Made by a program: the position numbers and the translations under genes. A model generated the notes under the pieces. That model saw nothing but the letters and a program-made list of their open reading frames with translations. It did not search any database and was not told where the DNA came from. From a virus (Duplodnaviria > Heunggongvirae > Uroviricota > Caudoviricetes), in IMG/VR virus record IMGVR_UViG_3300007177_000114: DNA of 64,000 nt; one strand, written 5' to 3'. Positions 755 to 43,716 of the stretch are shown one piece after another (position 1 is the stretch's first letter; each line of letters starts with the position of its first letter).

Positions 755-1691
755 TGTGTTCAGTACACGTTATCCACTTTATATTATTTCTAAAGGTCGG
801 TGGGAATCACGCTATACTTCTAAAGCTCTAGAACGTATGGGTGTACCGTATTATATTGCGATCGAACCTCAAGAATATGAACAGTATGCTTCCGTTATTG
901 ATCCAAAAAAAGTTCTGACACTGCCTTTTTCTAATCATGGCAAAGGTTCAGGACCAGCCCGTAATTGGTGCTGGGAACATTCGCAGGCTAATGGATTCAA
1001 GCGTCACTGGCTTTTAGATGATAATATTTACGAATTTTGGAGATTCCATAATAATAAACGTTATAGAATCGAACGTGGTTCAGCATGCTTTAGATCAGTA
1101 GAAGATTTTGTTGATCGGTTTGAGAATGTGGCACTAGCAGGACTTCAATATAAGTTTTTCTGTGTGGATGATTATCCATATCCACCATACATTTTAAATA
1201 CTCGTATTATGTCTTGTTTTCTTATTGATAATGCTTGTCCACATAAATGGCGTGGTCGGTACAATGAGGACGTAGATCTTTCAATCCGTGTTCTGAAGGA
1301 TGGTCTGTGCACAATGCTTTTCTATTCTTTTCTGTGTGGTAAAGCAAGAACTGGCACTATTAAAGGTGGAAATACTTCAGAAATTTATAATAACTACCAA
1401 GAAGATGCATCACTAAAAAAGTCACAAATGTTGATGGAAATGCATCCTGATGTAGTGACTTTACAGGAAAGATATGGTAGAATACACCATCATGTTGATC
1501 TAGAAGCTATTGTGAATAAACATGGTCAACCTGCTCGACAAAATATGCCAATTCTCAAACAAGATGTAAAGATCTTCAATAAAATTGATAACTACGGAAT
1601 GAAACTAATTCGTGAGTTTGGCACAGATCAGGCTTATGAAGATAAAGAATACTCTATTGAGAAATATCCTTCAGGAAGGAAAAATTTTTAA
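747..1691 (+). CDS. hypothetical protein, possibly glycosyltransferase-like (DxD-type motifs HWLLDDN, NEDVDLS)
   Basis: First ATG of track ORF 738..1691; stop overlaps the next start (TAATG). Confidence 0.5.
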   Translation: MNDVFSTRYPLYIISKGRWESRYTSKALERMGVPYYIAIEPQEYEQYASVIDPKKVLTLPFSNHGKGSGPARNWCWEHSQANGFKRHWLLDDNIYEFWRFHNNKRYRIERGSACFRSVEDFVDRFENVALAGLQYKFFCVDDYPYPPYILNTRIMSCFLIDNACPHKWRGRYNEDVDLSIRVLKDGLCTMLFYSFLCGKARTGTIKGGNTSEIYNNYQEDASLKKSQMLMEMHPDVVTLQERYGRIHHHVDLEAIVNKHGQPARQNMPILKQDVKIFNKIDNYGMKLIREFGTDQAYEDKEYSIEKYPSGRKNF

Positions 1692-2650
1692 TGTCACGGA
1701 TCTTTATTACCGGTATTGCTGGTTTTATTGGCTTTCATCTAGCTCAAAAACTACGTGAAGCAGGACACGAAGTAACCGGTTTGGATAATTTCAACAATTA
1801 TTATGATGTGAAACTGAAGCACGATCGTCACAATATTCTACATAAAAAGAACATTCATGTTTATTATGGCGATTTACTAAATAAAAACTTTATTAAAAAT
1901 ATACTAAATGTGGAAAAACCAGAACTGGTAATCCATCTTGCAGCATATGCTGGTGTGCGCCATTCATATGATCATGCAATGGATTATATCCAAAATAATA
2001 TTGTGGGAACACAAACTCTTATTGAGGTTCTAGAAGAACTGAATATCAATAAAGCAATTTATGCCTCTACTTCATGTGTTATGGCTGGTAATTCTCTACC
2101 ATGGAAAGAAGATGAACCAACAGGCCATCAGTTAAATCCATATGGATATACTAAGCGCACAAACGAATGTCAGTTTAAAACTTCAAAGATTAAACAAAAT
2201 ATCGGACTTCGTTTCTTCACAGTTTATGGTCCTTATGGGCGTCCAGATATGGCACTTTTTCAATTTGCAGAAGCTGCTGTAAACGGCAAGACAATTGATG
2301 TATATAACTATGGTGATATGAAACGTGATTTCACTTACGTAGATGATATTGTGAATGGTATTGAAATTCTTATGAAGCATATTCTAAATACAGACAACGA
2401 ACAAGCAGAAATCTATAATATCGGTCGTGGTCAACAAGTACCGCTCATGGATTTTATTTCAGAAATTGAAAAAAATATGGGTCGAGAAATTCAAAAAAAT
2501 CTAGTACCTAGACACCCAGCCGATACCCTAGAAACTTGGTCGGACACCACAAAACTCCAAACACTTGGATGGAAACCAATGGTATCAATTGGTACTGGTG
2601 TTTCTAGATTTTGTGAATGGTACAAAAATTATTATGGAATTAATTCATGA
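1691..2650 (+). CDS. NAD-dependent nucleotide-sugar epimerase/dehydratase (UDP-glucuronate 4-epimerase-like)
   Basis: N-terminal Rossmann motif ITGIAGFIGFHL, catalytic YGYTK (YxxxK), 319 aa; translationally coupled to its neighbours. Confidence 0.75.
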   Translation: MSRIFITGIAGFIGFHLAQKLREAGHEVTGLDNFNNYYDVKLKHDRHNILHKKNIHVYYGDLLNKNFIKNILNVEKPELVIHLAAYAGVRHSYDHAMDYIQNNIVGTQTLIEVLEELNINKAIYASTSCVMAGNSLPWKEDEPTGHQLNPYGYTKRTNECQFKTSKIKQNIGLRFFTVYGPYGRPDMALFQFAEAAVNGKTIDVYNYGDMKRDFTYVDDIVNGIEILMKHILNTDNEQAEIYNIGRGQQVPLMDFISEIEKNMGREIQKNLVPRHPADTLETWSDTTKLQTLGWKPMVSIGTGVSRFCEWYKNYYGINS

Positions 2651-12611: not shown

Positions 12612-13154
12612 ATGTACTATACTATTTATAAAATTACTAATAAACTTAACGGCAACTTTTATATCGGTAAACATAAGACCAAGAATCTAGATGATGGTTA
12701 TATGGGGTCCGGTAAACTTATTAGGGCAGCCATAAATAAATATGGTATTGAAAATTTTGAGAAAGAAATACTTGAAATTTTTGATACTGAAGAAGAAATG
12801 AATGAAGCCGAAAAAAGATATGTTGTTCTAGGTGAAGGAAGTTATAATCTTTGCCCTGGTGGGCAAGGTGGTTGGGGTTATATTAACCAAAATAATTTGG
12901 GTGGTACTTTAGGTAAAAAACACTCCAATGAAACTAAAACTAAAATAGCTTTATCTGTTAAAAATATTATGTTAAACGAAAGAAGATATGAATTAACTTC
13001 CTGGTGTTTAAAAAATGGGAATGGAATGTTAGGTAAAAAACATTCCCACGAAACTAAGGCTAAAATGTCAGGACCACGTGGAAAATATAACGTTAACAAA
13101 GCTGGTATTAAACGTGGTCCATATAAAAAGAAAAATATAGAATATTCCTCGTGA
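12612..13154 (+). CDS. GIY-YIG homing endonuclease (Seg-like)
   Basis: N-terminal YYTIYKITNKLNGNFYIGKH (GIY-YIG motif); paralog at 21914..22567; the stop lies inside the 5' end of the downstream tRNA. Confidence 0.8.
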   Translation: MYYTIYKITNKLNGNFYIGKHKTKNLDDGYMGSGKLIRAAINKYGIENFEKEILEIFDTEEEMNEAEKRYVVLGEGSYNLCPGGQGGWGYINQNNLGGTLGKKHSNETKTKIALSVKNIMLNERRYELTSWCLKNGNGMLGKKHSHETKAKMSGPRGKYNVNKAGIKRGPYKKKNIEYSS

Positions 13155-13324: not shown

Positions 13325-13401
13325 GCTCCCTTAACCCAACGGGTAGAGGTAGGAGACTTAAAATCTCTTCAGTATCAGTTCGAATCTGATAGGGAGTACC
13401 A
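13325..13401 (+). tRNA. tRNA with anticodon TAA (Leu-type) but class-I length; D arm irregular
   Basis: Acceptor GCTCCCT/AGGGAGT (G-U first pair), anticodon arm GGAGA-CTTAAAA-TCTCT, T arm ATCAG-TTCGAAT-CTGAT, A discriminator, CCA encoded. Confidence 0.4.
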
Positions 13402-13862: not shown

Positions 13863-13958
13863 GGTCCTGTAGCTCAATGGTAAGAGCGGAGAGCTTATAC
13901 CTCTCGTATGCACTAGATTGGTGCGCGGTTGGCGGTTCGAGTCCGTCCAGGACTACCA
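13863..13958 (+). tRNA. class-II (long variable arm) tRNA; anticodon reads TAT; identity unclear
   Basis: Acceptor GGTCCTG/CAGGACT, D arm GCTC-AATGGTAA-GAGC, anticodon arm GAGAG-CTTATAC-CTCTC, about 25-nt extra arm with GCAC/GTGC stem, T arm GGCGG-TTCGAGT-CCGTC, CCA. Confidence 0.45.
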
Positions 13959-14178: not shown

Positions 14179-14739
14179 ATGTCCTTCAACGTTCATGATT
14201 CATATAAGGATCTGAGTGTAGAAGAATTGAAAAAGCTATCGGATACAACTCGACTCCCATATTCAATTTGTCTGCTTAATTTAGATCATGATCTAAATAT
14301 TGGGAATTGTATTCGTACAGCTCATATTTTTGGTGCTCAAAAGGTTTTTATCTTTGGTAAGCGTCGATATGATTTGAGATCAACAGTTGGTGCTAATCAT
14401 TATACTAATATCATCAAGCATGATTTTGCAGAACTCACAAGTGATGAAGTTATCGTTGCTGAATTTGAAAAGATGATTCGTGAAAATGATCTGCAACCAC
14501 TTCTAGTTGATAAGACAGAAAAATCTGTTGATATAAATGGTATGTTTGATTATTATGATTATACAAGGAACGGATATCCATGCTTGGTTTTCGGGAATGA
14601 AAATTCCGGAATCCCAACATGCTTGACGGATAAATATCCTTGCTTTCATATTCGTCAACGTGGAGTAATTCGTTCACTAAATGTTGCATCTGCTGCTGCA
14701 GTTGCAATGTACGAATTCTCTAAATATATAGAAGAATAA
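14179..14739 (+). CDS. SpoU/TrmH-family RNA 2'-O-methyltransferase
   Basis: Motifs NIGNCIRTAHIFG, VFGNENSGIP and SLNVASAAAVAMYEF (SPOUT class); embedded in the tRNA cluster. Confidence 0.7.
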   Translation: MSFNVHDSYKDLSVEELKKLSDTTRLPYSICLLNLDHDLNIGNCIRTAHIFGAQKVFIFGKRRYDLRSTVGANHYTNIIKHDFAELTSDEVIVAEFEKMIRENDLQPLLVDKTEKSVDINGMFDYYDYTRNGYPCLVFGNENSGIPTCLTDKYPCFHIRQRGVIRSLNVASAAAVAMYEFSKYIEE

Positions 14740-16781: not shown

Positions 16782-17222
16782 ATGGAACAAAAACATAATA
16801 TTGATGATTCTGTGTATATTGAAGCCTACTATAGGTTAAAAACTATCGGTAAAATAGCTCATGAATTGGGCGTACCTGACGTAACAGTATGGAGAAGATG
16901 TAAAAAACTTGGTTTAAGTTTTAAAAATGGTGGGCAAAATAAAGATAAAAGAAGAAATCAAACCAAATTTCTTCTTGAAGATATATTAAATGGATTACAC
17001 CCACAATATCCAACTGTTAAACTTAAAAATAGACTTATTAAAGAAAATAAAATAGAATATAAATGTTCTTTATGTTCCATAAAAGAATGGAATTCGAAAG
17101 AATTAACACTTCATCTAGATCATATAGATGGTAATCCAAAAAATCACAATCTAAATAATTTAAGATTGTTATGTCCTAATTGTCATTCTCAAACTGATAC
17201 ATGGTGTGGTAAAAATAAATAA
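16782..17222 (+). CDS. HNH homing endonuclease
   Basis: C-terminal HLDHIDGNPKNHNLNNLRLLCPNCHSQ (HNH with zinc-ribbon cysteines); ATG at 16782 after AAGGAG. Confidence 0.7.
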   Translation: MEQKHNIDDSVYIEAYYRLKTIGKIAHELGVPDVTVWRRCKKLGLSFKNGGQNKDKRRNQTKFLLEDILNGLHPQYPTVKLKNRLIKENKIEYKCSLCSIKEWNSKELTLHLDHIDGNPKNHNLNNLRLLCPNCHSQTDTWCGKNK

Positions 17223-20930: not shown

Positions 20931-21008
20931 GCTCGTGTAGCCCAATTGGTAAGAGGCACTAGCCTTAGAAGCTAGGTGTTGCTAGTTCGAATCTAGTCAC
21001 GAGTACCA
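20931..21008 (+). tRNA. tRNA with anticodon TAG (Leu-type codon CUA) but class-I architecture
   Basis: Acceptor GCTCGTG/CACGAGT, anticodon arm CTAGC-CTTAGAA-GCTAG, 5-nt variable region, T arm GCTAG-TTCGAAT-CTAGT, A discriminator, CCA. Confidence 0.55.
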
Positions 21009-21913: not shown

Positions 21914-22567
21914 ATGCACTATACTATTTATAAAATTACTAATAAGATTAACGGTAACTTTTATATCGGCAAACATAAGACCAAAAATTTAGATGATGGT
22001 TATATGGGTTCTGGTAAACTTATAAAAGCAGCCATAAAAAAATATGGTAAAGAAAATTTTACAAAAGAAATACTTGAATTTTTTGATACTGAAGAAGAAA
22101 TGAATGAAGCCGAAAAAAGATATGTTGTTTTAGGTGAAGGTAGTTATAATATATGTCCCGGTGGCCAAGGTGGTTGGGGTTATATTAATAATAGCGGATT
22201 AAATTGGACCCCAGAAAAAAATAAAAGAATAAGTGGGTTTAAAAACTTTACCCTTGAACAAAGAAGATACTATGCTGTAGTTAATAAATCTCATTTATAT
22301 ATTGAAAAATACCGTGAAAATGTTAAATTAGGATTAGCTAATCCACCAAAAAGACATAGACCTATGTCGGAAGAACATAGAAATAAAATTGGAAAAGCAA
22401 ATTCTATTAAGCAAAAAGGATCATTAAATTCCCAATTTGGAATAAGATTTAAGTGGATGAACAAAAATAATATAAATAAAAAAGTTCCTTTACAAGAAAC
22501 TAATGATTATTTAAGTAATGATTGGGTTTTTGGTAGATCTAAATCCAATTCAACTATGCTGATATAG
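21914..22567 (+). CDS. GIY-YIG homing endonuclease (Seg-like), paralog of 12612..13154
   Basis: HYTIYKITNKINGNFYIGKH; N-terminal 100 aa about 85% identical to the first copy; stop inside the next tRNA. Confidence 0.8.
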   Translation: MHYTIYKITNKINGNFYIGKHKTKNLDDGYMGSGKLIKAAIKKYGKENFTKEILEFFDTEEEMNEAEKRYVVLGEGSYNICPGGQGGWGYINNSGLNWTPEKNKRISGFKNFTLEQRRYYAVVNKSHLYIEKYRENVKLGLANPPKRHRPMSEEHRNKIGKANSIKQKGSLNSQFGIRFKWMNKNNINKKVPLQETNDYLSNDWVFGRSKSNSTMLI

Positions 22568-22635: not shown

Positions 22636-22712
22636 GCATCTATAGGCCAATTGGTAGAGTCAATGGTTTGAGAGACCATACAGTGCTGGTTCGAATCCAG
22701 TTAGATGCACCA
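22636..22712 (+). tRNA. tRNA with anticodon GAG (Leu-type codon CUC) but class-I architecture
   Basis: Acceptor GCATCTA/TAGATGC perfect, anticodon arm ATGGT-TTGAGAG-ACCAT, 5-nt variable region, T arm GCTGG-TTCGAAT-CCAGT, A discriminator, CCA. Confidence 0.55.
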
Positions 22713-33063: not shown

Positions 33064-33140
33064 GCCCGTATAGCCCAACTGGCAGAGGTAGTGGTCTCAA
33101 AAATCATTCAGTGTCGGTTCAAATCCGACTACGGGTACCA
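33064..33140 (+). tRNA. tRNA with anticodon CAA (Leu-type) in a class-I frame; D arm unresolved
   Basis: Acceptor GCCCGTA/TACGGGT, anticodon arm GTGGT-CTCAAAA-ATCAT (two G-U), T arm GTCGG-TTCAAAT-CCGAC, A discriminator, CCA. Confidence 0.45.
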
Positions 33141-33431: not shown

Positions 33432-33460
33432 TTGACAGATACTAAATTTTAGATTATAAT
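33432..33460 (+). promoter_or_regulatory. promoter TTGACA-N17-TATAAT with conserved leader (copy 2)
   Basis: GGTTGACAGATACTAAATTTTAGATTATAATCCACTATATAATGAATGAGGTG. Confidence 0.5.
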
Positions 33461-33486: not shown

Positions 33487-33846
33487 ATGGGTAATCGAAT
33501 TTCTGCTTTTCATGCTATTCCTTTTTCCAATAGTATTGGTCAAACAATTCTTCCTGGCGAAAAAATTATTTTTGCTGCAACTGCATGGAAAAATACTCGC
33601 ATTAAACAGGGTACATTTGATGGTGTAAATAAGGACTCTAAAGATCAGATTACATCTGTTCGAGTTTCTTATCCAATCAATAATTATGTTCATAATGGCA
33701 AATATGAACCGACTGTGCGTCAGCGCTATAATTATCAGACTCGTCGATATGAAGATTATACATATGATCGCCCTCTTTATGATATTGTTCCGGGTATCGG
33801 TCGTTCAACACTTCCTCTCAAGCGAGTCTTTAAGATTGCCGAATAA
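33487..33846 (+). CDS. hypothetical protein
   Basis: ATG 33487 (MGNRISAFHA...); 119 aa. Confidence 0.45.
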   Translation: MGNRISAFHAIPFSNSIGQTILPGEKIIFAATAWKNTRIKQGTFDGVNKDSKDQITSVRVSYPINNYVHNGKYEPTVRQRYNYQTRRYEDYTYDRPLYDIVPGIGRSTLPLKRVFKIAE

Positions 33847-33923
33847 GTAAAATTAAGGATTGGTTGCAGCAATAAAAAAGTTTTTTATTGGAAAAAAACA
33901 AACCACGCCAATCCGTTTAATAT

Positions 33924-33998
33924 GCAGATGTGATGTAATGGTTAGCAAAACGATCTCTAAAATCGTGTGTCAGGGTTCAATTCCCTGCATCTGCACCA
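33924..33998 (+). tRNA. amber-suppressor-type tRNA (anticodon CTA, reads UAG)
   Basis: Perfect acceptor GCAGATG/CATCTGC plus A plus CCA; D arm TGT-AATGGTTA-GCA; anticodon arm ACGAT-CTCTAAA-ATCGT (perfect 5 bp, U33, A37); T arm CAGGG-TTCAATT-CCCTG. Confidence 0.65.
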
Positions 33999-34127
33999 CT
34001 CCTTGATAAGGATATCAATATGATTATAATTTCGTTAAAAGAAACGTAGCAAGAATCCATTCGTGGTCCTCCCGTGGATTTATTATGAACTTTAACTACA
34101 GTGAAAATAAAACACAGGAGAACTAAA

Positions 34128-34778
34128 ATGAATGAAAATATCACTGCTGCATGGAAGCAGCTAGCTAATAAAAAATCAATTCAAAACTATGATGTAGCAG
34201 CATACTGTATCATCAAAGCTATCTTTGCTAAGTCTAACGAGAAACTTGAAGTAGCTAAAGCACTTCTTCTTAAATCATTCTCACCGATTGCTAAAGAATC
34301 TAAACTTAATAATGGTCACACAGAGTGGCAAGCACTAGCTAGTGCTATGGTTTGGATCTTTAGATCCTCACTTTATTCTGAACTCACAGAAGATGAAAAA
34401 GTTCAGTTTGATGATCTAACTAAGAAGCTCTTGAAAGAAGAATGGCAAGATAAGACTTATGCTTACATTCTGGTAAGAAAAGACCTACCACCAATTCAAC
34501 AGGTGGTGCAAGCCGCTCATGTGGCAATGGTTTTAGGTCAACAAGTTCCTAAACACAAAGCTGATGCTAGAAAGCAACATTTCTGTGTATTGGCTCTTGA
34601 AGATAATGAAGACCTTCTTAAGGAAATGGCTAAAGCTACTAGACTTAAGATTCCATTTGCTCGATTCTTTGAATCTGATATTAATCAGTATACCGCAATG
34701 GCTTATTATCCAATGAGAAAGTCATATGCTCAAAGAAAAAGACTTTTTGATGGAAGAAACCTATTGACAATATGCTAA
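34128..34778 (+). CDS. hypothetical protein
   Basis: AGGAG RBS then ATG 34128 (MNENITAAWKQL...). Confidence 0.5.
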   Translation: MNENITAAWKQLANKKSIQNYDVAAYCIIKAIFAKSNEKLEVAKALLLKSFSPIAKESKLNNGHTEWQALASAMVWIFRSSLYSELTEDEKVQFDDLTKKLLKEEWQDKTYAYILVRKDLPPIQQVVQAAHVAMVLGQQVPKHKADARKQHFCVLALEDNEDLLKEMAKATRLKIPFARFFESDINQYTAMAYYPMRKSYAQRKRLFDGRNLLTIC

Positions 34779-34792: not shown

Positions 34793-34814
34793 ACCCTTAT
34801 AAATTAAAGAATAA

Positions 34815-34866
34815 GGGTTGGGTTCAGCATACAAAAGCTTTTTGAAACAGCAACCAAGTCCAACCC
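34815..34866 (+). ncRNA. Y-RNA-like unit 1 (terminal stem GGGTTGG/CCAACCC enclosing the GTTCAGCA...AACAGCAA motif)
   Basis: 7-bp inverted repeat flanking a 38-nt insert carrying the TTCAGCA/CAGCAA motif. Confidence 0.3.
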
Positions 34867-34877
34867 GTCTACTTTTT

Positions 34878-34939
34878 AGATTCGTTTCAGCAAATAAAAA
34901 GCAATGGACTGTTAATCCAAAACTGCAAAAAGCGAATCT
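34878..34939 (+). ncRNA. Y-RNA-like unit 2 (stem AGATTCG/CGAATCT, motif TTTCAGCAA)
   Basis: 7-bp terminal stem; conserved TTTCAGCAA directly 3' of the 5' stem strand; A-rich tract before the 3' stem strand. Confidence 0.35.
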
Positions 34940-34959
34940 GATTACTAATTTACGATTAA

Positions 34960-35058
34960 AGGATGGTTTCAGCAAACCATTATAGTAGCTCAATGGATGA
35001 GCAAGTGTCATCAAAACACTCGGTGTAGGTTCGAATCCTACCTAAAAAACACCATCCT
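34960..35058 (+). ncRNA. Y-RNA-like unit 3 with embedded tRNA-like domain (D arm, TCA anticodon-like hairpin, T arm GTAGG-TTCGAAT-CCTAC)
   Basis: Stem AGGATGG/CCATCCT; TTTCAGCAA motif; internal GCTC-AATGGAT-GAGC, AGTGT-CATCAAA-ACACT and a canonical T arm; no acceptor pairing of its own. Confidence 0.45.
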
Positions 35059-35072
35059 GATTTCTTACTAAT

Positions 35073-35171
35073 GGAATAAGTTCCGCAACATAAAATCTTC
35101 TTTTTGCACAAGGACCGTGAACGTTCGATTCGTTCGATGCCGAGGCTGGTGCCAGGAAAGGCTATTATTCC
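35073..35171 (+). ncRNA. Y-RNA-like unit 4 (stem GGAATAA/TTATTCC, motif GTTCCGCAA, T-arm-like GAACG-TTCGATT-CGTTC)
   Basis: 7-bp terminal stem; variant motif TTCCGCAA; internal T-arm mimic. Confidence 0.4.
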
Positions 35172-35184
35172 GATAACCAATTTA

Positions 35185-35311
35185 GAGTGACCTTTCAGCA
35201 ACCCAGTCAGATCTCTATAGAGATCATTCAGGAACAGCTAATAGATCTTCGGATGCTATTTGGCACCCAGGCTTTCGAATTTACCTGGTAAAAACAAAGA
35301 AGAAGTCACTC
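35185..35311 (+). ncRNA. Y-RNA-like unit 5 (stem GAGTGAC/GTCACTC, motif CTTTCAGCAA, T-arm-like CCAGG-CTTTCGAATTTA-CCTGG)
   Basis: 7-bp terminal stem; palindrome GATCTCTATAGAGATC; TTCGAAT-containing hairpin. Confidence 0.4.
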
Positions 35312-35329
35312 TGTTAACCCCTTAATTTA

Positions 35330-35448
35330 AGGATGCTTTCAGCAAATTGTCATTTGACAATGTTGGTTCAACTCCAACTTTCGCAACTTTGCGAAATCGC
35401 CTAATGGTAGGGCAATCGTTTTGTAAACGATGTTAAAAAAGGCATCCT
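35330..35448 (+). ncRNA. Y-RNA-like unit 6 (stem AGGATGC/GCATCCT, motif TTTCAGCAA, T-arm-like GTTGG-TTCAACT-CCAAC plus D-like and anticodon-like hairpins)
   Basis: 7-bp terminal stem; internal hairpins TTGTCA/TGACAA, TTTCGCAA/TTGCGAAA, ATCGT-TTTGTAA-ACGAT. Confidence 0.45.
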
Positions 35449-35461
35449 GTCTACTAAAAGT

Positions 35462-35562
35462 AGATTAACTTCCGCAAAAAAATAATCTCCAGTCACTTTT
35501 TTGTGACACTAAAAACCCATAAGTCGGGGTCAGGTTTGATATCCTGAATGACTTGTTAATCT
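35462..35562 (+). ncRNA. Y-RNA-like unit 7 (stem AGATTAAC/GTTAATCT, motif TTCCGCAA, T-arm-like TCAGG-TTTGATA-TCCTGA)
   Basis: 8-bp terminal stem ending 19 nt before the RBS of the Ro60-like gene. Confidence 0.4.
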
Positions 35563-35581
35563 GTAATGAAAGGAATATATT

Positions 35582-37012
35582 ATGAACGCTTTTGCTAAGG
35601 CTGCTCTAAACCAGACCGCTCGTACCACAAACGGTATGAAGGCTCTAAAGACTTCAACTAATCCATGTGTTGATCTTTTCTATAAGATCGGTGCCTCACG
35701 TGGTAAGAATATCATCCCAGATTTTGTTGCTGCTTATACTCATAATAAGGAAGTAGCAGGTCGTATTGCTCTCTGGGCTCGTGATGTTCGTGGTGGTGCA
35801 GGTGAACGTGAAATCTTCCGTTCTATCCTAACCTATCTTTCCGAACACGATCCAAATATGGCTTCTCGACTTGTACTCCGTACTCCTGAACTAGGTCGTT
35901 GGGATGACGTATTTGCAACAACCGGTGAAGCTCGAGTTACTGCCGTCGGTATGATCCGTCGTGCTCTAGCTACTCGTGATGGTCTTGCCGCAAAGTGGAT
36001 GCCACGTAAGGGCCCGGTTGCAATTGAACTTCGTAATGCTCTTGGTTTTACACCAAAGCAGTACCGTAAGACACTAGTAAATCTCTCAAATGTTGTTGAG
36101 AGTCAGATGTGTGCCAAGGATTGGGATAACATCAATTTCAATCATGTGCCATCTGTTGCTTCTGCTCGATACAAGAAGGCATTCAATCGCAACACTCCAA
36201 AGTACAAGGAATGGACTTCTAAGCTTGTCAGCACTGATCCAAAGGTCCGTGAGGAAGTAAAGATCAATGCTGGTGCTGTATATCCATACGATGTACTAAA
36301 GGGTAAGATCAATCACTATGGTTCTAGTTCCTACTCTCGTGCAGAACTCAATGCAGTTCTAGCTCAATGGGAAGCACTACCAAACTACATGAATGGGACT
36401 AACGTTCTTCCTCTGGTCGACGTTTCAGGATCCATGACATGTTCTGTTGGTGGATCCACCAAGACCGGTCTATCTTGTCTTGATGTTGCTGTTTCTCTTG
36501 GTCTGTACTGCGCAGACAAGAACACCGGTGATTTTAAGGACATGTTCCTTACTTTCTCTGGTTCTCCTGAACTTCTTACTCTTCGTGGTAATATTCTTCA
36601 GAAGATTGATCAGATGGTCAAGTCTAATTGGGCTATGAACACAAACATTGTTGCTGCAATGGACAAAATCCTTCGTACTGCAATTAATGGTAATGTTCCT
36701 CAAGAAGATATGCCAAAGATGCTGCTCATTCTTTCCGATATGCAGTTTGATCAATGCGCTCGTTTTGACCACTCTGCACTCGAGTCATTCCGTCACCAGT
36801 TCACAAAGGCTGGTTATGAAATGCCAAAGATCGTTTTCTGGAATCTTAACTCTCATGATAACGTGCCAGTTAAGGAGAATGAAAACGGAGTAGCTCTTGT
36901 TTCTGGCTTCAGCCCTTCTATTCTGAAGTCTGTTCTTTCTGCCGATCTAGAACAATTTACACCAGAAGCTATGATGATGAAGACTATCATGTCTGATCGT
37001 TACGGTTTCTAA
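35582..37012 (+). CDS. Ro60/TROVE-like protein with C-terminal vWA domain (MIDAS DVSGSM)
   Basis: 476 aa; AAGGAATATATTATG RBS; vWA MIDAS motif LVDVSGSMTCSVGGS near residue 283 and a following LILSDMQFD; N-terminal alpha-repeat region; immediately downstream of the stem-flanked tRNA-mimic RNA array. Confidence 0.5.
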   Translation: MNAFAKAALNQTARTTNGMKALKTSTNPCVDLFYKIGASRGKNIIPDFVAAYTHNKEVAGRIALWARDVRGGAGEREIFRSILTYLSEHDPNMASRLVLRTPELGRWDDVFATTGEARVTAVGMIRRALATRDGLAAKWMPRKGPVAIELRNALGFTPKQYRKTLVNLSNVVESQMCAKDWDNINFNHVPSVASARYKKAFNRNTPKYKEWTSKLVSTDPKVREEVKINAGAVYPYDVLKGKINHYGSSSYSRAELNAVLAQWEALPNYMNGTNVLPLVDVSGSMTCSVGGSTKTGLSCLDVAVSLGLYCADKNTGDFKDMFLTFSGSPELLTLRGNILQKIDQMVKSNWAMNTNIVAAMDKILRTAINGNVPQEDMPKMLLILSDMQFDQCARFDHSALESFRHQFTKAGYEMPKIVFWNLNSHDNVPVKENENGVALVSGFSPSILKSVLSADLEQFTPEAMMMKTIMSDRYGF

Positions 37013-37195: not shown

Positions 37196-37276
37196 AAGTT
37201 GGTATGGTGTAACGGACAAGCACGACGGCCTCCAAACCCGTTAGTCCAGGTTCAAATCCTGGTACCTTCGCCACTT
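37196..37276 (+). other. tRNA-like element (T arm CCAGG-TTCAAAT-CCTGG plus encoded CCA) with unresolved acceptor and D arm
   Basis: TACCTTC-G-CCA 3' end but no matching 5' strand found; internal stem TAACGG/CCGTTA. Confidence 0.25.
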
Positions 37277-37342: not shown

Positions 37343-38338
37343 ATGACTAAATTAGGCGTATTTATCGGGCGTTTTCAGCCCCTTCACGAAGGTCACATTG
37401 AAGCCATTTCAAATGCTTGCAAACAAGTGGACCTTCTTCTTGTCCTAATCGGATCGGCTAATCAGTGCCGCAGTGTAAAGAATCCGTGGACATATGATGA
37501 ACGACTCGAGATGTTTAAAGAAAAACTTGTTCTCGTTGATCGACGTATTGAAATTCTCCCCTTAAATGATTATCAGTATTCTGCTACGCAATGGATGGCA
37601 GATGTTCGTGCAAGCGTTGAGTATATCCAGGAAAAACACAAGATTACATCAGCACCAATTCTTTTTGGTCACATGAAAGAAGGTAATGATTATCTGAATT
37701 GGTTTCCTGATTGGAAATTTAAAAATATTTCCGCTAAGTATAAGATCAATGCCACGACTGTTCGACAAAATATGATCATGCAAAATGATCCAAAATTCCC
37801 TGCAACAGTTCTCCAAGATTGGCATTTCTATAATAAAGAACAAGAACTGTTTAAGAATTATCCATTCCCGGAAACTCTTAATTTCAATTGTTCTGATGCA
37901 ATTCTAGAATGTCAAGGTCATGTACTTTTAATTCAACGTAAGTTTGCACCAGGTGCTGGCTGTTGGGCTTTACCGGGAGGATTTAGAAACAACAAGGAAA
38001 CATTTCTAGATTGTGCCATTCGTGAACTACAAGAAGAAACAAATGTTCGAGTCCCAGAAAAAGTACTACGTGGATCAATTGTAAAGACACAATTATTTGA
38101 TTCACCTACTCGTTCCTTTGGTCTTCTACGAAATACATTTGCTGTCTATATGCGAATCAATCCAAATCTGGATTATTCTCTTCCTCGAGCAAATGGTGCT
38201 GATGATGCGGCTACATGTAAGTGGGTGCCTCTCACTGATGCTCTTAACTTATATGAACTTTATGATGACCATGCTGCAATCATTTCTACTATGACAGGTG
38301 TTATGCCGATGCCTGCTTTTACAAAACTTAAAAGATAA
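37343..38338 (+). CDS. natV: bifunctional NMN adenylyltransferase / Nudix ADP-ribose pyrophosphatase (NadM/NatV-like)
   Basis: N-terminal GVFIGRFQPLHEGH (HxGH nucleotidyltransferase) and C-terminal Nudix box AIRELQEETN; 331 aa; promoter TTGACT-N15-TATATAAT at 37273. Confidence 0.8.
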   Translation: MTKLGVFIGRFQPLHEGHIEAISNACKQVDLLLVLIGSANQCRSVKNPWTYDERLEMFKEKLVLVDRRIEILPLNDYQYSATQWMADVRASVEYIQEKHKITSAPILFGHMKEGNDYLNWFPDWKFKNISAKYKINATTVRQNMIMQNDPKFPATVLQDWHFYNKEQELFKNYPFPETLNFNCSDAILECQGHVLLIQRKFAPGAGCWALPGGFRNNKETFLDCAIRELQEETNVRVPEKVLRGSIVKTQLFDSPTRSFGLLRNTFAVYMRINPNLDYSLPRANGADDAATCKWVPLTDALNLYELYDDHAAIISTMTGVMPMPAFTKLKR

Positions 38339-38350
38339 GGAGTTTATCTT

Positions 38351-39736
38351 ATGAATATTCTTAAAAATATCCTGCTGAATGTTGATAGCTACAAACTCTC
38401 AATGTTTGAGCAATACCCAGAAGGGACTGAAATTGTCCACAGCTACATTGAATCCCGTGGTGGTGAACATGCTGAGACACTATTCTTTGGTCTACAGGGC
38501 TTCATCAAGGATTATCTTCTAAAGCCAGTCACCATGGAAGATATTAATATTGCAGAAGAAATTCTTCAAGCCCATGGTGAACCGTTTAATCGTGCCGGTT
38601 GGGAATACATTGTAAACAAACACGGTGGTAAATTACCAGTTCATATCTGTGCAGTACCAGAAGGTACCGTTGTTCCTGTTAGCAATGTTCTTGTAACTAT
38701 TGAAAATACAGATAAGAATTGTTTCTGGTTAACTACACATCTTGAAACAGCTTTACTTCGAGCAATTTGGTACCCTACAACTGTAGCAACTAACAGCAAA
38801 GCCATCAAGAATCTAATTAAAGAATTCCTTGAAAAGAATGGTGATCCTGCTGGTCTAGGTTTTAAATTACATGACTTTGGTGCTCGTGGTGTATCTAGTC
38901 AAGAATCCGCTGGGATTGGTGGTGCTGCCCATCTAATTAATTTCATGGGTACCGATACCATTGCTGGTATTCTTTGGGCTCGTGAACATTATAATGCTGG
39001 TGTTGCTGGTTTCTCTATTCCTGCAGCAGAGCATAGCACTATTACAAGTTGGGGTCGTCCTCATGAAGTAAAAGCATATGAAAATATGCTGAATAAATTT
39101 GCAAAGCCTGGATCCATTCTTGCTGTTGTAAGTGATAGCTATGATGTATTCAATGCAGCAGAAAATCTCTGGGGTGGTGAACTAAAGCAAAAAGTACTTG
39201 ACTCTGGTGCTACTCTGGTAATTCGGCCCGACTCTGGCCATCCAGTACATGTAAACTGTAAACTTGTAGAAATTCTAGATAATAAATTTGGTTCTACAAT
39301 CAATAACAAAGGATTTCGTGTTCTGAATAATGTGCGTTTGATTCAGGGTGATGGTGTTAATTTTGATACTGTCAAAAAGATTCTTACCGCATTCCATAAT
39401 GATGGATACTCTGCTGATAATATTGCCTTTGGTATGGGTGGTGCTCTTCTACAGCATGTCAATCGAGACACACAGAAGTTTGCTATGAAATGCTCTGCTG
39501 TGCGTGTTGGTCAGCATGATTGGAGAAAGGTTCTTAAAGATCCTATTACCGACTCTGGTAAGAAAAGTAAGGCAGGTCTACTTGAACTTTGGCGCAAAGA
39601 TAAAAACTTTGCTACTTCTGAAACTGCTCCTGAACTACTCAATGGTTGGGAACGTGGACTAGAAACCGTCTACCTAAATGGTGAACTAATCCGTGATATG
39701 ACCTTTGAGGAAATCAGGAATAATTCAAATGCCTAA
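38351..39736 (+). CDS. nadV: nicotinamide phosphoribosyltransferase (NadV/NAMPT)
   Basis: 461 aa, NAMPT-family length and motifs (GTDTIAG, DSYD); adjacent to natV, as in KVP40-like phages. Confidence 0.8.
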   Translation: MNILKNILLNVDSYKLSMFEQYPEGTEIVHSYIESRGGEHAETLFFGLQGFIKDYLLKPVTMEDINIAEEILQAHGEPFNRAGWEYIVNKHGGKLPVHICAVPEGTVVPVSNVLVTIENTDKNCFWLTTHLETALLRAIWYPTTVATNSKAIKNLIKEFLEKNGDPAGLGFKLHDFGARGVSSQESAGIGGAAHLINFMGTDTIAGILWAREHYNAGVAGFSIPAAEHSTITSWGRPHEVKAYENMLNKFAKPGSILAVVSDSYDVFNAAENLWGGELKQKVLDSGATLVIRPDSGHPVHVNCKLVEILDNKFGSTINNKGFRVLNNVRLIQGDGVNFDTVKKILTAFHNDGYSADNIAFGMGGALLQHVNRDTQKFAMKCSAVRVGQHDWRKVLKDPITDSGKKSKAGLLELWRKDKNFATSETAPELLNGWERGLETVYLNGELIRDMTFEEIRNNSNA

Positions 39737-42256: not shown

Positions 42257-42307
42257 GATTACCTCATAACGTGATACTTGTGGTTATATCCCAATCTGAG
42301 ATTAAAG

Positions 42308-42532
42308 TCAATCGGTAATTTCACGCTTGGAGATGCGCTGCCACTTCTTCCGAGGCTTGCGCCCGGCGCTACCGTCGTAATAGCCATCCTCGTCAAACGA
42401 CGTGCGCCCACCCAGATGCGACAGATTGGTCTTCCGCCTGGACCGCTTCGACATCTTGTCTGCCGAGCTGTGGTAGCGCCCATCCGAGGCGATCGTCACG
42501 TTCATCTTATCCATAGTCCCACCAAAAGTCAT
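42308..42532 (-). CDS. hypothetical basic protein
   Basis: Start at the ATG after the conserved leader (MTFGGTMDKM...). Confidence 0.45.
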   Translation of the reverse strand: MTFGGTMDKMNVTIASDGRYHSSADKMSKRSRRKTNLSHLGGRTSFDEDGYYDGSAGRKPRKKWQRISKREITD

Positions 42533-42559
42533 CTTAGTTACCTCATTCATCATAGTGTC

Positions 42560-42588
42560 TTTATACCACCTGGTCGGATTAAAGTCAA
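42560..42588 (-). promoter_or_regulatory. conserved early promoter, minus strand
   Basis: Reverse complement TTGACTTTAATCCGACCAGGTGGTATAAAG. Confidence 0.5.
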
Positions 42589-42950
42589 CCCAAGGAAATC
42601 AATACGTTAGCCTTAACCCATTGAAAAGATTATAAAAACTTTTTTGAACTTTTTTGCATGGGTTTGGCGAGCAGCAGGAGCTCGACATCATTAAGACGGT
42701 AAAACTTAATCTTTTCAATAGGTTAGCATATCCTCAGAATGTAAGGAAATCAATGGGTTAGGCTATAAGAACGGCTCTCGGCAGTCTAAGTCACCTAAGC
42801 GGTATGATAACCCTCTTAGAACCGCTTAGACTGCCGAGAGCCCGGCATAGATGCTAACCCATTGAAAAGATTATATACTGAAAAAAAGTTCAAAAAATAT
42901 TTTCAATCATATCAATCACTTAGCGCTAACCCATTGATATCATTAGGTTG
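42587..42950. repeat. iteron/operator-like region C
   Basis: TCAATACGTTA-GCCT-TAACCCATTGA, TCAATCACTTA-GCGC-TAACCCATTGA and further TCAATGGGTTA / TAACCCATTGA copies; hairpin CTCGGCAGTCTAAG...CTTAGACTGCCGAG; shares the 17-nt prefix AACCCAAGGAAATCAAT with region A. Confidence 0.6.
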
Positions 42951-42976
42951 ACTTTTAAATTAGGTTGAGGTATAAA
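42948..42976 (+). promoter_or_regulatory. conserved early promoter
   Basis: TTGACTTTTAAATTAGGTTGAGGTATAAAG plus leader GACTATGAACAAGGTGACAAACATG. Confidence 0.55.
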
Positions 42977-43000
42977 GAGACTATGAACAAGGTGACAAAC

Positions 43001-43237
43001 ATGACCGACTCCACCGACCGCCTCCTCGGCTGCATCCGTATCTCGCCCGAGGGTGAGTACCACCCCGGCAAGTACACCATCGAGACGTTCGGCTACTGGA
43101 ACCAGGATGAACCGTCCTGGGGCATGCCGGCATGGGACGAGCGTGGGTGGTCTGAGTTTGCCACCCACTTCGACTCTTATGCCATGGCCGAGAAGGCTAT
43201 TGCGGATTCGTGGTGGAATCCGGATTGGATCGCCTAA
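43001..43237 (+). CDS. hypothetical protein
   Basis: ATG 43001 (MTDSTDRLLGCIRISPEGEY...). Confidence 0.5.
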   Translation: MTDSTDRLLGCIRISPEGEYHPGKYTIETFGYWNQDEPSWGMPAWDERGWSEFATHFDSYAMAEKAIADSWWNPDWIA

Positions 43238-43245
43238 AACTTCTG

Positions 43246-43274
43246 TTGACTTTAATCTCAGCTGATGGTATAAA
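43246..43274 (+). promoter_or_regulatory. conserved early promoter
   Basis: TTGACTTTAATCTCAGCTGATGGTATAAAG. Confidence 0.5.
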
Positions 43275-43301
43275 GAGACTATGATGAATGAGGGAACTAA
43301 G

Positions 43302-43508
43302 ATGATCAAGGCCACTCCTGCAATGATCCGGTTTATCAAGATGCTTCCGGCCGACCAGCGGATCACGGCGGCTCTTCGTGCCGAAAACGTCTATGCTGCT
43401 GCCCTGGCACAGCTGACCAAGTTCGACGACTTCAGCCATGAGCAAAACGTTGCCATGGCATTTGAGGCCGCTGAGGCCGAACTGGCTTATATGGCCAACC
43501 AATCTTAA
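43302..43508 (+). CDS. hypothetical protein
   Basis: ATG 43302 (MIKATPAMIRFIK...). Confidence 0.5.
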   Translation: MIKATPAMIRFIKMLPADQRITAALRAENVYAAALAQLTKFDDFSHEQNVAMAFEAAEAELAYMANQS

Positions 43509-43518
43509 GGTAACACAT

Positions 43519-43716
43519 ATGTTAAAAACTCTTTCTCTCTTGGCTGCTTCAGTAGCCCTTGCTGGTTGCGTTGCAGTGCCCGTGGATCAAGTCTACGTAG
43601 CACCCACCCCAGTTTACGTGTCACCACCTGTAATCTATTCCCCACCGGTTTATATGCCCTACTATAGGCACCATTATAGACCTCGTGTATATCGTCACGG
43701 TTCTTGGATTTATTAA
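43519..43716 (+). CDS. small lipoprotein, Tyr/Pro-rich
   Basis: TAAGGTAA RBS; signal peptide plus lipobox LAGC; PVYVSPPVIYSPPVYMPYYRHHYRPRVYRH. Confidence 0.5.
   Translation: MLKTLSLLAASVALAGCVAVPVDQVYVAPTPVYVSPPVIYSPPVYMPYYRHHYRPRVYRHGSWIY

What the first reader, a model, noticed from the sequence alone, without database searches (positions are those of the whole stretch)
33924..33998. Amber-suppressor tRNA (anticodon CUA) outside the main tRNA cluster
This is a canonical 75-nt cloverleaf: perfect 7-bp acceptor, A73, encoded CCA, a D loop with GG, a good T arm, and a perfect 5-bp anticodon stem. The anticodon loop is CTCTAAA, which places CUA at positions 34-36 and would decode UAG. No tRNA-Trp(CCA) was found elsewhere in the window, so this could be a Trp-derived (supU-like) suppressor. 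Long ORFs in the window are intact under the standard code, so global recoding is unlikely. A suppressor tRNA would fit programmed read-through of specific TAG-terminated genes or a counter-defence role.
Basis: seen in the sequence. Interest (0 to 1): 0.75.

Follow-up and report, generated by a model that had tools for sequence, protein, structure and literature searches.

The report
Conserved phage amber-suppressor tRNA
A large T4-like virus of bacteria carries a genuine transfer RNA built to read the stop codon UAG, and its relatives have kept it beside the same enzyme gene, although none of their sampled genes needs UAG to be read as an amino acid; this is a known kind of oddity whose purpose is still unsolved.

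Summary
ARAGORN and Rfam (59 bits) call a 75-nt tRNA at 33924-33998 (+) with anticodon CUA, A73 and an encoded CCA. It is not a sequencing error or pseudogene. Five further lineages of uncultivated T4-like phages keep a CUA tRNA next to the same gene. 16 of 21 stem pairs show compensatory changes, while the anticodon loop CUCUAAA never varies. The tRNA body is closest to these phages' own tRNA-Trp(CCA). The phage uses the standard code. TAG ends about 9% of genes, no credible gene is interrupted by TAG, and read-through extensions are short. Flanking DNA and a sister clade's core head and tail genes are intact. The always-adjacent 216-aa gene has a Pth2 (peptidyl-tRNA hydrolase) fold. The second apparent suppressor (UCA, 34979-35050) is instead a tRNA mimic inside an array of Y-RNA-like modules upstream of a Ro60-like gene. 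Amber suppressors with no identifiable target genes are already described in large standard-code phages such as XacN1. This is a new member of a known kind, and its function is unresolved.

The parts
33924..33998 (+). tRNA with anticodon CUA (amber-suppressor type), A73, encoded CCA, 4-nt variable loop
   Evidence: ARAGORN; Rfam tRNA 59 bits; orthologues in five other lineages with 16/21 covarying pairs and an invariant anticodon loop
33432..33460 (+). consensus sigma-70-type promoter (TTGACA-17-TATAAT, 12/12), probably driving the upstream ORF and the tRNA (inferred)
   Evidence: the same TTGACA-N17-TATAAT is present in sister clade L002. No terminator-like site was predicted between it and the tRNA
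33487..33846 (+). 119-aa ORF of unknown function directly upstream, syntenic in relatives; the true start is 33487, not 33475
   Evidence: GAGGTG Shine-Dalgarno; the JGI call starts at the equivalent position; L002 has a TGA upstream of it
33857..33914 (+). hairpin module 'M0': 8-bp closing stem GGAUUGGU/GCCAAUCC followed by the motif UUGCAGCAA, ending 9 nt before the tRNA. It has the same architecture as the modules upstream of the Ro60-like gene
   Evidence: fold; motif scan; about 88% conserved in L002; replaced by an HNH gene in L146
34128..34778 (+). 216-aa protein: N-terminal helical domain plus a C-terminal Pth2-fold (peptidyl-tRNA hydrolase 2-like) domain. It is adjacent to the CUA tRNA in all six lineages that have the tRNA
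   Evidence: Pfam PTH2 below threshold in 9/16 family members; AlphaFold2 pLDDT 88.6; the top 14 Foldseek PDB hits are all Pth2, TM 0.68-0.75; synteny
37198..37273 (+). tRNA-Trp(CCA), G73: the closest paralogue type and likely evolutionary source of the CUA tRNA

Best explanation
This is a genuine phage-encoded elongator tRNA, most likely derived from a phage tRNA-Trp through a C35-to-U change. Selection has kept its anticodon loop as CUCUAAA. It is probably transcribed early from a host-type promoter, processed, charged by a host synthetase and used on the ribosome to decode UAG in competition with release factor 1. The amino acid is unknown: Trp or Gln by analogy with E. coli Su7, or Lys or Tyr given A73 and U35. 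The phage itself uses the standard code, so this is stop-codon suppression rather than code reassignment. TAG is the phage's rarest stop, and read-through of its own TAG-ending genes would add only 1-25 residues. The cost of suppression to the phage is therefore low. The benefit is inferred, not shown. It may be read-through of host or competitor UAG stops during takeover, or buffering of amber mutations (the 'pre-recoding' state proposed for standard-code relatives of recoded phages). The tRNA travels as a unit with a Pth2-fold protein that plausibly recycles peptidyl-tRNA, or acts on this tRNA's ester bond. Shown here: tRNA structure, anticodon, conservation, covariation, synteny, standard code, Pth2 fold. 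Inferred: expression, charging, decoding and biological role.
For: The tRNA calls and scores agree. Six lineages, whose neighbouring protein is only 47-74% identical, keep a CUA tRNA within about 140 nt of the same gene. In a hand-curated structural alignment, 120/126 stem cells pair and 16/21 pairs show compensatory changes, yet all 7 loop bases are invariant. In the three-sequence test, 9/21 pairs changed on both sides and 0/500 shuffles reached that value. Also in that test, 33 of 65 positions outside the loop vary and 0 of 7 inside it do (P about 0.007). The loop has U33 and A36-A37-A38. From my own knowledge, that is the loop of the E. coli supF and Su7 suppressors and the MiaA recognition motif. 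Trp is the nearest isotype. The standard code fits: 87.5% coding with stops TAA 80 / TGA 25 / TAG 14 (curated set 71/19/9). No credible TAG-interrupted gene was found. TAG extensions are 1-25 codons. Another 19 kb of the same phage and the sister clade's terminase, sheath, portal and capsid block are intact. A conserved consensus promoter lies upstream with no terminator before the tRNA. The neighbour has a Pth2 fold. Precedents exist: XacN1 has two CUA suppressors with no identifiable targets (PMC5852040), and a standard-code close relative of TGA-recoded phages carries a TGA suppressor tRNA (10.1101/2021.08.26.457843).
Against: There are no expression, aminoacylation or suppression data. A73 in 5 of 6 copies, together with U35, removes the two main bacterial TrpRS identity elements, so charging is uncertain. 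The 27:43 pair is mismatched in 3 of 6 copies, and the window copy has an A10.A25 mismatch. No signature of adaptation to suppression was detectable: backup stops after TAG are no closer than after TAA/TGA (p=0.25). Only about 83 kb of the roughly 161-kb genome, plus about 10 kb of a sister clade's late genes, could be inspected. Tail-fibre, baseplate and lysis genes were not seen. One clade with the Pth2-like gene (L008) has no CUA tRNA beside it.
Confidence: 0.6

Rival explanations
1. Partial code reassignment. The tRNA exists to decode in-frame TAG codons in a subset of phage genes that lie outside the DNA examined (for example tail-fibre, baseplate or lysis genes), as in crAss-like, Lak and other TAG-recoded phages, where recoding is concentrated in late genes.
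For: Recoding in known phages is often confined to structural and lysis genes and can be missed in partial genomes (10.1101/2021.08.26.457843). The tRNA sits behind an early-type promoter, as that model predicts. In sister clade L002, three consecutive ORFs (1319-2293, minus strand) share one frame and each ends in TAG.
Against: No TAG-interrupted gene was found in 64 kb or in 19 kb of flanks. The sister clade's terminase, sheath, tube, portal, protease, scaffold and major capsid genes are full length, and 0/23 end in TAG. TAG is used as a real terminator for about 9% of genes. Making TAG a sense codon lengthens ORFs less than doing the same for TGA or TAA. Homologues of the first L002 ORF in Vibrio phages end at the same residue, so the three-ORF fusion is not supported.
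Confidence: 0.12
2. A non-decoding role. The tRNA is a decoy or partner RNA rather than a translational adaptor. It might be a bait for a host anticodon nuclease or other tRNA-targeting defence, or a component of the neighbouring Ro60-like/Y-RNA-like system.
For: It lies in an island with a Ro60-like gene, an array of tRNA-mimic modules and NAD-salvage genes. A module of the same architecture (M0) directly precedes it. Y RNAs are known tRNA mimics encoded near Ro60 (PMC4201824).
Against: Unlike the mimic at 34979-35050, this RNA keeps a covarying 7-bp acceptor stem, U33, a 7-nt loop and, in 5 of 6 lineages, an encoded CCA. These are the features needed for charging and decoding. M0 is absent in L146, L150 and other relatives, yet the tRNA persists. 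No nuclease known to me targets a CUA anticodon.
Confidence: 0.1
3. A neutral relic. This is a redundant tRNA-Trp copy whose anticodon mutated and which is drifting (a pseudogene), or the CUA is an assembly or sequencing error.
For: Phages with large tRNA sets often carry aberrant copies. The window copy has a D-stem mismatch. The L151 copy lacks CCA and has U56.
Against: Six lineages from independent metagenomes all have CUA. There is extensive compensatory change with an invariant loop. Between the two closest clades the tRNA is as conserved as tRNA-Leu(CAA) (84% against 83%) and more conserved than tRNA-Trp (70%).
Confidence: 0.04

Closest known systems
E. coli Su7 (supU) amber suppressor, tRNA-Trp with anticodon CUA
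   Same: It has the same anticodon loop CUCUAAA, reached from a CUCCAAA Trp loop by a single C35-to-U change. The phage CUA tRNAs are closest to the phages' own Trp tRNAs. The loop identity to Su7 is from my own knowledge.
   Different: Su7 is a laboratory mutant of a cellular gene. This tRNA is a naturally fixed, separately encoded phage gene kept alongside an intact tRNA-Trp. It has A73 in 5 of 6 lineages instead of G73, and the inserted amino acid is unknown.
Suppressor tRNAs of stop-codon-recoded phages (crAss-like, Lak and the clades of Borges et al.; 10.1101/2021.08.26.457843)
   Same: Both are phage-encoded tRNA(CUA) genes in AT-rich genomes that prefer TAA. That work also reports a suppressor tRNA (for TGA) in a standard-code close relative of recoded phages.
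   Different: No in-frame TAG was found in any gene inspected here, including a sister clade's core late genes. The lineage is an environmental T4-like myovirus, not a gut phage. The likely tRNA origin is Trp, not Gln.
Amber or opal suppressor tRNAs annotated in large standard-code lytic phages: Xanthomonas phage XacN1 (two CUA), Agrobacterium phage Atu_ph07 (UCA), Klebsiella phage phiKp24 (Sup-TTA), Pectobacterium phage CBB ('tRNA-Pyl' CTA)
   Same: Each is a large tRNA-rich myovirus with the standard code and a suppressor-type tRNA. For XacN1, in-silico read-through found no target genes. XacN1 and Atu_ph07 also encode peptidyl-tRNA hydrolase. The CBB tRNA shares the anticodon arm and T arm at 83% identity.
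   Different: Here the suppressor is shown to be conserved with covariation across six diverged lineages and physically linked to a Pth2-fold gene. The cited papers report neither.
T4 psu amber suppressors (McClain 1970, as cited in PMC8386662)
   Same: A T4-type phage tRNA gene carrying a CUA anticodon that suppresses UAG.
   Different: Those are selected laboratory mutants of T4 tRNA genes. This is the wild-type state of a natural lineage.

Membership tests
Canonical elongator tRNA (Rfam RF00005) | Covariance-model score above the gathering threshold over the full model | tested here: met
   59.0 bits against 29, model positions 1-71
Canonical elongator tRNA (Rfam RF00005) | Cloverleaf helices maintained by compensatory substitutions in homologues | tested here: met
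   16/21 pairs compensatory and 120/126 cells paired in six lineages; 0/500 shuffles reach the observed covariation
Canonical elongator tRNA (Rfam RF00005) | Universal elements: U8-A14 (or a covarying pair), G18G19, U33, a purine at 37, T54-Psi55-C56, and a 3' CCA (encoded or added) | tested here: met
   All are present in the window copy. L146 and L150 have A8 with U14. CCA is encoded in 5 of 6 copies.
Amber suppressor tRNA | Anticodon 5'-CUA-3' at positions 34-36 of a 7-nt loop closed by a 5-bp stem | tested here: met
   the loop is invariant in six lineages
Amber suppressor tRNA | Is aminoacylated and inserts an amino acid at UAG in vivo | not testable with these tools
   Needs a reporter assay, acid-gel northern blot or mass spectrometry
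tRNA-Pyl (ARAGORN's label) | Pyl-type architecture (3-nt variable loop, 6-bp anticodon stem, small D loop without G18G19; from my own knowledge) and pylS/pylBCD genes nearby | tested here: not met
   This tRNA has a 4-nt variable loop, a 5-bp anticodon stem, an 8-nt D loop with G18G19 and a canonical T loop. No Pyl genes appeared among the neighbours scanned.
Stop-codon-recoded phage (TAG as sense, code 15-like) | Conserved genes interrupted by in-frame TAG; coding density rises when TAG is read as sense | tested here: not met
   Caveat: only about half of the genome plus a sister clade's late block could be inspected.
tRNA-Trp-derived suppressor (Su7-like) | Body sequence closest to tRNA-Trp of the same genomes | tested here: met
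   Trp is the top hit for 4 of 6 copies. Mean best identity is 67.5% against 63% for the next isotype, a modest margin. A8A9/U14 is shared with the L149 tRNA-Trp.
tRNA-Trp-derived suppressor (Su7-like) | Retains the bacterial TrpRS identity element G73 | tested here: not met
   A73 in five lineages and G73 only in L150; all Trp(CCA) tRNAs have G73
Pth2 peptidyl-tRNA hydrolase (the neighbouring gene 34128-34778) | Pth2 fold | tested here: met
   Foldseek against PDB: the top 14 hits are all Pth2, probability 1.00, target TM 0.68-0.75, for a model with pLDDT 88.6
Pth2 peptidyl-tRNA hydrolase (the neighbouring gene 34128-34778) | Passes the Pfam PF01981 gathering score; catalytic residues present | tested here: inconclusive
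   18.5 bits against a cut-off of 23 for the window protein. 9/16 family members hit PTH2 below threshold, best E 4e-5. Neither an alignment profile nor an approximate C-terminal-domain sequence typed by hand matched any PDB Pth2 sequence. Catalytic residues were not mapped.

The most novel reading that the evidence does not exclude
The CUA tRNA and the Pth2-fold protein that is always beside it form one functional device for handling UAG. In one version, the tRNA captures ribosomes at UAG and the hydrolase releases or recycles the product, giving the phage termination or quality control independent of RF1. In the other, the pair enables decoding of in-frame TAG in late genes that could not be sampled, which would make this the first partly recoded T4-like phage.
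Probability: 0.1. Interest if true: 0.8.

Novelty: new member of a known kind. Interest (0 to 1): 0.42.

Why it matters
Suppressor tRNAs in phages that use the standard code are repeatedly annotated but unexplained. This case adds evidence that such a tRNA is not an accident. It has been kept, with an unchanged anticodon loop, while the rest of the molecule and the surrounding genes diverged widely. It also stays physically linked to a Pth2-fold gene. That gives a concrete two-gene unit to clone and test. It is also a natural example relevant to the proposed route from standard code to stop-codon reassignment, in a phage group (environmental T4-likes) where recoding has not, to my knowledge, been described.

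Tried and rejected
1. Near and distant DNA searches of the phage collection found no close relative of the region. The tRNA's best matches were an Aeromonas phage tRNA-Arg(TCT), 75% identical with an almost identical D arm, and the CBB 'tRNA-Pyl'. I rejected an Arg origin: the match looks like generic scaffold similarity and A20/C35 are absent.
2. E. coli genomes gave no match to the tRNA.
3. Exact and degenerate tRNA patterns found only the sister-clade contig in viral contigs and nothing in metagenome or genome contigs. One viral scan was wasted on a mis-counted pattern.
4. A loose scaffold pattern returned more than 120 hits. These are eukaryote-type tRNA-Gly(UCC), Gln and Glu genes that share the D arm, so they say nothing about ancestry.
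5. The search for related loci with the 216-aa protein found nothing in viral contigs. Exact look-up of the Ro60-like protein failed.
6. A test for closer backup stops after TAG was not significant, p=0.25.
7. The candidate TAG-containing ORF at 42984-43586 (minus strand) gives junk translations in a repeat-rich region.
8. An apparent stop inside the orthologue of the upstream ORF turned out to be a TGA upstream of the true start.
9. The three in-frame TAG-terminated ORFs in L002 were tested as a fusion protein. The large protein search returned nothing. Phage tblastn showed that homologues of ORF A end at the same residue. The fusion was rejected.
10. Sequence searches of the Pth2-like family against PDB sequences gave nothing. 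Only the fold comparison worked.
11. The amino-acid identity could not be resolved. The G1-C72/A73/U35/A36 combination fits several synthetases, and the host is unknown.

Full report
THE OBSERVATION
ARAGORN finds 28 tRNA genes in the window, all on the + strand. One lies at exactly 33924-33998 with anticodon cta; the 'tRNA-Pyl' label only reflects the anticodon. Rfam's tRNA model scores it 59 bits against a threshold of 29, over the full model. The sequence reads GCAGAUG-UG-AUGU-AAUGGUUA-GCAA-A-ACGAU-CUCUAAA-AUCGU-GUGU-CAGGG-UUCAAUU-CCCUG-CAUCUGC-A-CCA. This gives a perfect 7-bp acceptor stem, A73, an encoded CCA, G18G19, a canonical T loop, a 5-bp anticodon stem and a 7-nt loop with U33 and C34-U35-A36.

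WHAT THE GENOME IS
The window is the early and replication region of a T4-like myovirus. It encodes the gp45 clamp, the gp44 clamp loader, gp43 polymerase, UvsX and gp41 helicase. G+C is about 37%. No deposited phage is close: the polymerase is only about 48% identical to those of cyanophages and other T4-likes. The 17-kb JGI metagenome contig L001 encodes an identical copy of the 216-aa protein, with the same gene order and the same five tRNA calls as window 25.3-42.3 kb.

IS THE CUA REAL AND SELECTED?
I used the gene just downstream (216 aa) as a handle to collect relatives and fetched their contigs. A tRNA with anticodon CUA lies next to that gene in five further lineages:
- L002-L007 (74% protein identity)
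- L146 (72%)
- L149 (48%)
- L151/L152 (47-49%)
- L150 (47%)
In the first four it sits about 130-140 nt upstream of the gene; in L150 it sits 27 nt downstream. Only the L008 clade lacks it.

In a hand-curated structural alignment of the six tRNAs, 120 of 126 stem positions pair. 16 of 21 pairs show compensatory double changes. The loop CUCUAAA is identical in all six, the variable loop is always 4 nt, G1-C72 is invariant, and the discriminator is A in five and G in one. On the three closest sequences the formal count gives 9 of 21 pairs changed on both sides, and 0 of 500 shuffles reach that value; slid-register controls collapse. In those three sequences, 33 of 65 positions outside the loop vary and 0 of 7 inside it do, P about 0.007. 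Between the two nearest clades the tRNA is 84% identical. That compares with 83% for tRNA-Leu(CAA) and 70% for tRNA-Trp. This rules out sequencing error and drift and shows selection on the anticodon loop.

ORIGIN AND IDENTITY
Among 61 other tRNAs collected from these phages, Trp tRNAs are the best match for four of the six CUA tRNAs. Mean best identity is 67.5%, against 63% for the next isotype. The L146 and L150 copies share the unusual A8-A9/U14 combination and the GUGU/GCAC D stem with the L149 tRNA-Trp. The Trp loop CUCCAAA becomes CUCUAAA by one change. From my own knowledge, that is the Su7 route in E. coli, and A36-A37-A38 is the MiaA determinant that makes UAG readers efficient. So 'Trp-derived' is moderately supported. 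Which amino acid is attached is not resolved. A73 and U35 remove the main bacterial TrpRS determinants. G1-C72, A73 and U35 would also suit LysRS or TyrRS, and C34-U35 would suit GlnRS. The host is unknown.

IS THE CODE CHANGED?
It is not, as far as could be seen.
- A greedy standard-code gene set covers 87.5% of the window, with stops TAA 80, TGA 25 and TAG 14. A curated set gives 71, 19 and 9.
- Treating TAG as sense lengthens ORFs less than treating TGA or TAA as sense.
- Only six places have 50 or more open codons on both sides of a TAG. All are antisense to, or out of frame with, real genes.
- TAG-terminated genes would gain 1-25 residues on read-through. That is no different from genes ending in TAA or TGA (p=0.25).
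- A further 19 kb of the same phage is intact. It includes UvsY, UvsW, gp46/47 and ligase on one side, and ThyX and ribonucleotide reductase on the other.
- Known recoded phages concentrate in-frame stops in late genes, so I reached a sister clade's late block through the tail-tube-like protein. Terminase, sheath (690 aa), tube, portal (572 aa), prohead protease, scaffold and major capsid protein (454 aa) are all full length. None of its 23 genes ends in TAG.
- One oddity remains. In L002, three consecutive ORFs share one frame and each ends in TAG. Homologues of the first ORF in Vibrio phages stop at the same residue, so a read-through fusion is not supported.

CONTEXT
A 12/12 consensus sigma-70 promoter at 33432-33460 is conserved in L002. 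It precedes the upstream ORF and the tRNA, with no predicted terminator between them. Early expression by host polymerase is therefore likely but inferred.

The downstream 216-aa protein gives below-threshold Pfam PTH2 hits in 9 of 16 family members. Its AlphaFold2 model (pLDDT 88.6) matches only Pth2 peptidyl-tRNA hydrolases in the PDB: the top 14 hits have TM 0.68-0.75. The adjacency survives even where the wider gene order differs (L150). That suggests either a functional link or shared mobility. In L146 an HNH endonuclease gene is inserted directly upstream and overlaps the tRNA.

THE SECOND 'SUPPRESSOR'
ARAGORN's tRNA-SeC(tca) at 34979-35050 is not an opal suppressor. It lacks U33 (A in the window, C in L002 and L146). 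Its 'anticodon' varies between clades (AUC, CUC, AGU). Its acceptor stem is not maintained, and it has no CCA. Instead it is enclosed by a longer stem that covaries across four clades: GGAUGGU/ACCAUCC, GGAUGUU/AACAUCC and GGAUAGA/UCUAUCC.

It is one of about seven tandem modules between the Pth2-like gene and a Ro60-like (TROVE) gene at 35582-37012. An eighth module lies just upstream of the CUA tRNA. Each module has a closing stem, then the motif UUYMGCAA, then hairpins that often resemble T or D arms. This matches the logic of Y RNAs. Those are tRNA mimics encoded beside Ro60 on the same strand, with a 5' CGAA-type motif (PMC4201824; PMC12135203). The motif here differs, however, and Rfam finds no Y RNA.

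COMPARISON WITH WHAT IS KNOWN
Suppressor tRNAs in standard-code phages are documented but unexplained.
- XacN1 has two CUA tRNAs, and in-silico read-through found no targets.
- Atu_ph07 has a UCA tRNA.
- phiKp24 has a Sup-TTA tRNA.
- CBB has an annotated 'tRNA-Pyl' CTA.
- Borges et al. report a TGA suppressor tRNA in a standard-code close relative of TGA-recoded phages and propose that acquisition precedes recoding.
The present tRNA is a new member of this kind. What is added here is evidence of long-term selection on the CUA loop, a probable Trp origin, and a conserved pairing with a Pth2-fold gene.

VERDICT
This is a real, conserved amber-suppressor-type tRNA in a standard-code T4-like phage. 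The most likely mechanism is ordinary UAG suppression in competition with RF1, at low cost to the phage. Its benefit is still unknown (confidence 0.6). Dedicated recoding of unsampled genes (0.12), a non-decoding role (0.1) and a relic (0.04) are the rivals. Interest is moderate.

Noticed in passing
window 34800-35580 (+), plus 33857-33914: There is a tandem array of about seven structured RNA modules upstream of the Ro60-like gene, plus one module just 5' of the CUA tRNA. Each has a 7-10 bp closing stem, the single-stranded motif UU(U/G/C)C(A/C)GCAA, and interior hairpins that often resemble tRNA T or D arms. The array is 80-89% identical to the sister clade, more conserved than the neighbouring proteins, and its closing stems covary. 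It is probably a Y-RNA-like (YrlA-like) array with a non-canonical Ro-binding motif. Rfam finds no Y RNA family here.
   Followed up: partly
window 34979-35050 (+): ARAGORN's 'tRNA-SeC (tca)' scores 50 bits in Rfam but is a tRNA mimic inside module M3. It has no U33, its 'anticodon' varies between clades, its acceptor stem is not conserved, and it has no CCA. It should not be counted as an opal suppressor. In L151 the same element is called 'tRNA-Tyr (gta)'.
   Followed up: yes
window 35582-37012 (+): A Ro60/TROVE-like protein (DUF2828 + DUF7788), 44-50% identical to homologues in Synechococcus, Cronobacter, Citrobacter and KVP40-like Vibrio phages, where some records annotate it as 'RNA-binding protein'.
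   Followed up: partly
window 37343-39736 (+): Adjacent NMN adenylyltransferase-Nudix (NadR-like) and nicotinamide phosphoribosyltransferase genes form an NAD+ salvage pair. From my own knowledge, this is the type described as phage counter-defence against NAD-depleting immunity.
   Followed up: no
window 13325-13401, 20931-21008, 22636-22712, 33064-33140 (+): All four tRNAs with Leu anticodons (UAA, UAG, GAG, CAA) are 77-78 nt class I molecules with a 5-nt variable loop instead of the long extra arm of bacterial tRNA-Leu. All have A73. The more distant relative L149 has normal 85-88-nt Leu tRNAs.
   Followed up: partly
window 13863-13958 (+): The tRNA with anticodon UAU (Ile) is 96 nt long, with an extra arm or insertion of about 25 nt after the anticodon stem. 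L149 has a 95-nt counterpart.
   Followed up: no
window 14179-14739 (+): A SpoU-family (TrmH/TrmL-like) RNA 2'-O-methyltransferase gene is embedded in the main tRNA cluster. Homing endonuclease genes (GIY-YIG at 12612-13154; a homing endonuclease at 21914-22567; a sub-threshold HNH hit at 16782-17222) are interspersed with the tRNAs.
   Followed up: no
window 42260-43510: This G+C-rich stretch (about 46%) lacks convincing long ORFs. It contains a repeated element of about 60 nt in both orientations, seen as the recurring peptide '...LIHHSLFIP..IKVN' in several frames, and small paralogous ORFs starting MMNE(V/G)TKM.
   Followed up: no
L002 1319-2293 (-): Three consecutive small ORFs (102, 74 and 130 aa) lie in one reading frame. 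Each ends in TAG, with no other stop between them. These are three of the four TAG-terminated genes in that 20-kb locus. Homologues of the first ORF end at the same residue in Vibrio phages, so this is probably coincidence, but it is the only read-through candidate seen.
   Followed up: partly
L146 5291-5863: In this clade an HNH homing-endonuclease gene replaces module M0 and runs 41 nt into the CUA tRNA gene. The tRNA body there is very different from the window's (43% of positions differ), but the anticodon loop is the same.
   Followed up: partly
L016 14216-18841: Downstream of the window the same phage encodes a GatB/YqeY-domain protein and ThyX. Its ribonucleotide reductase large subunit is split by an intein-like segment and a free-standing GIY-YIG endonuclease gene.
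   Followed up: no
L008 16733-16821: A distant relative carries an ARAGORN tRNA call with a 4-base anticodon (gagg), i.e. of frameshift-suppressor type.
   Followed up: no
window 34040-34085 (+): The leader between the CUA tRNA and the Pth2-like gene holds a strongly conserved element, ACGUAGCAAGAAUCCAUUCGUGGUCCUCC, with a hairpin. It is retained in L002 and L146 and could be regulatory.
   Followed up: no
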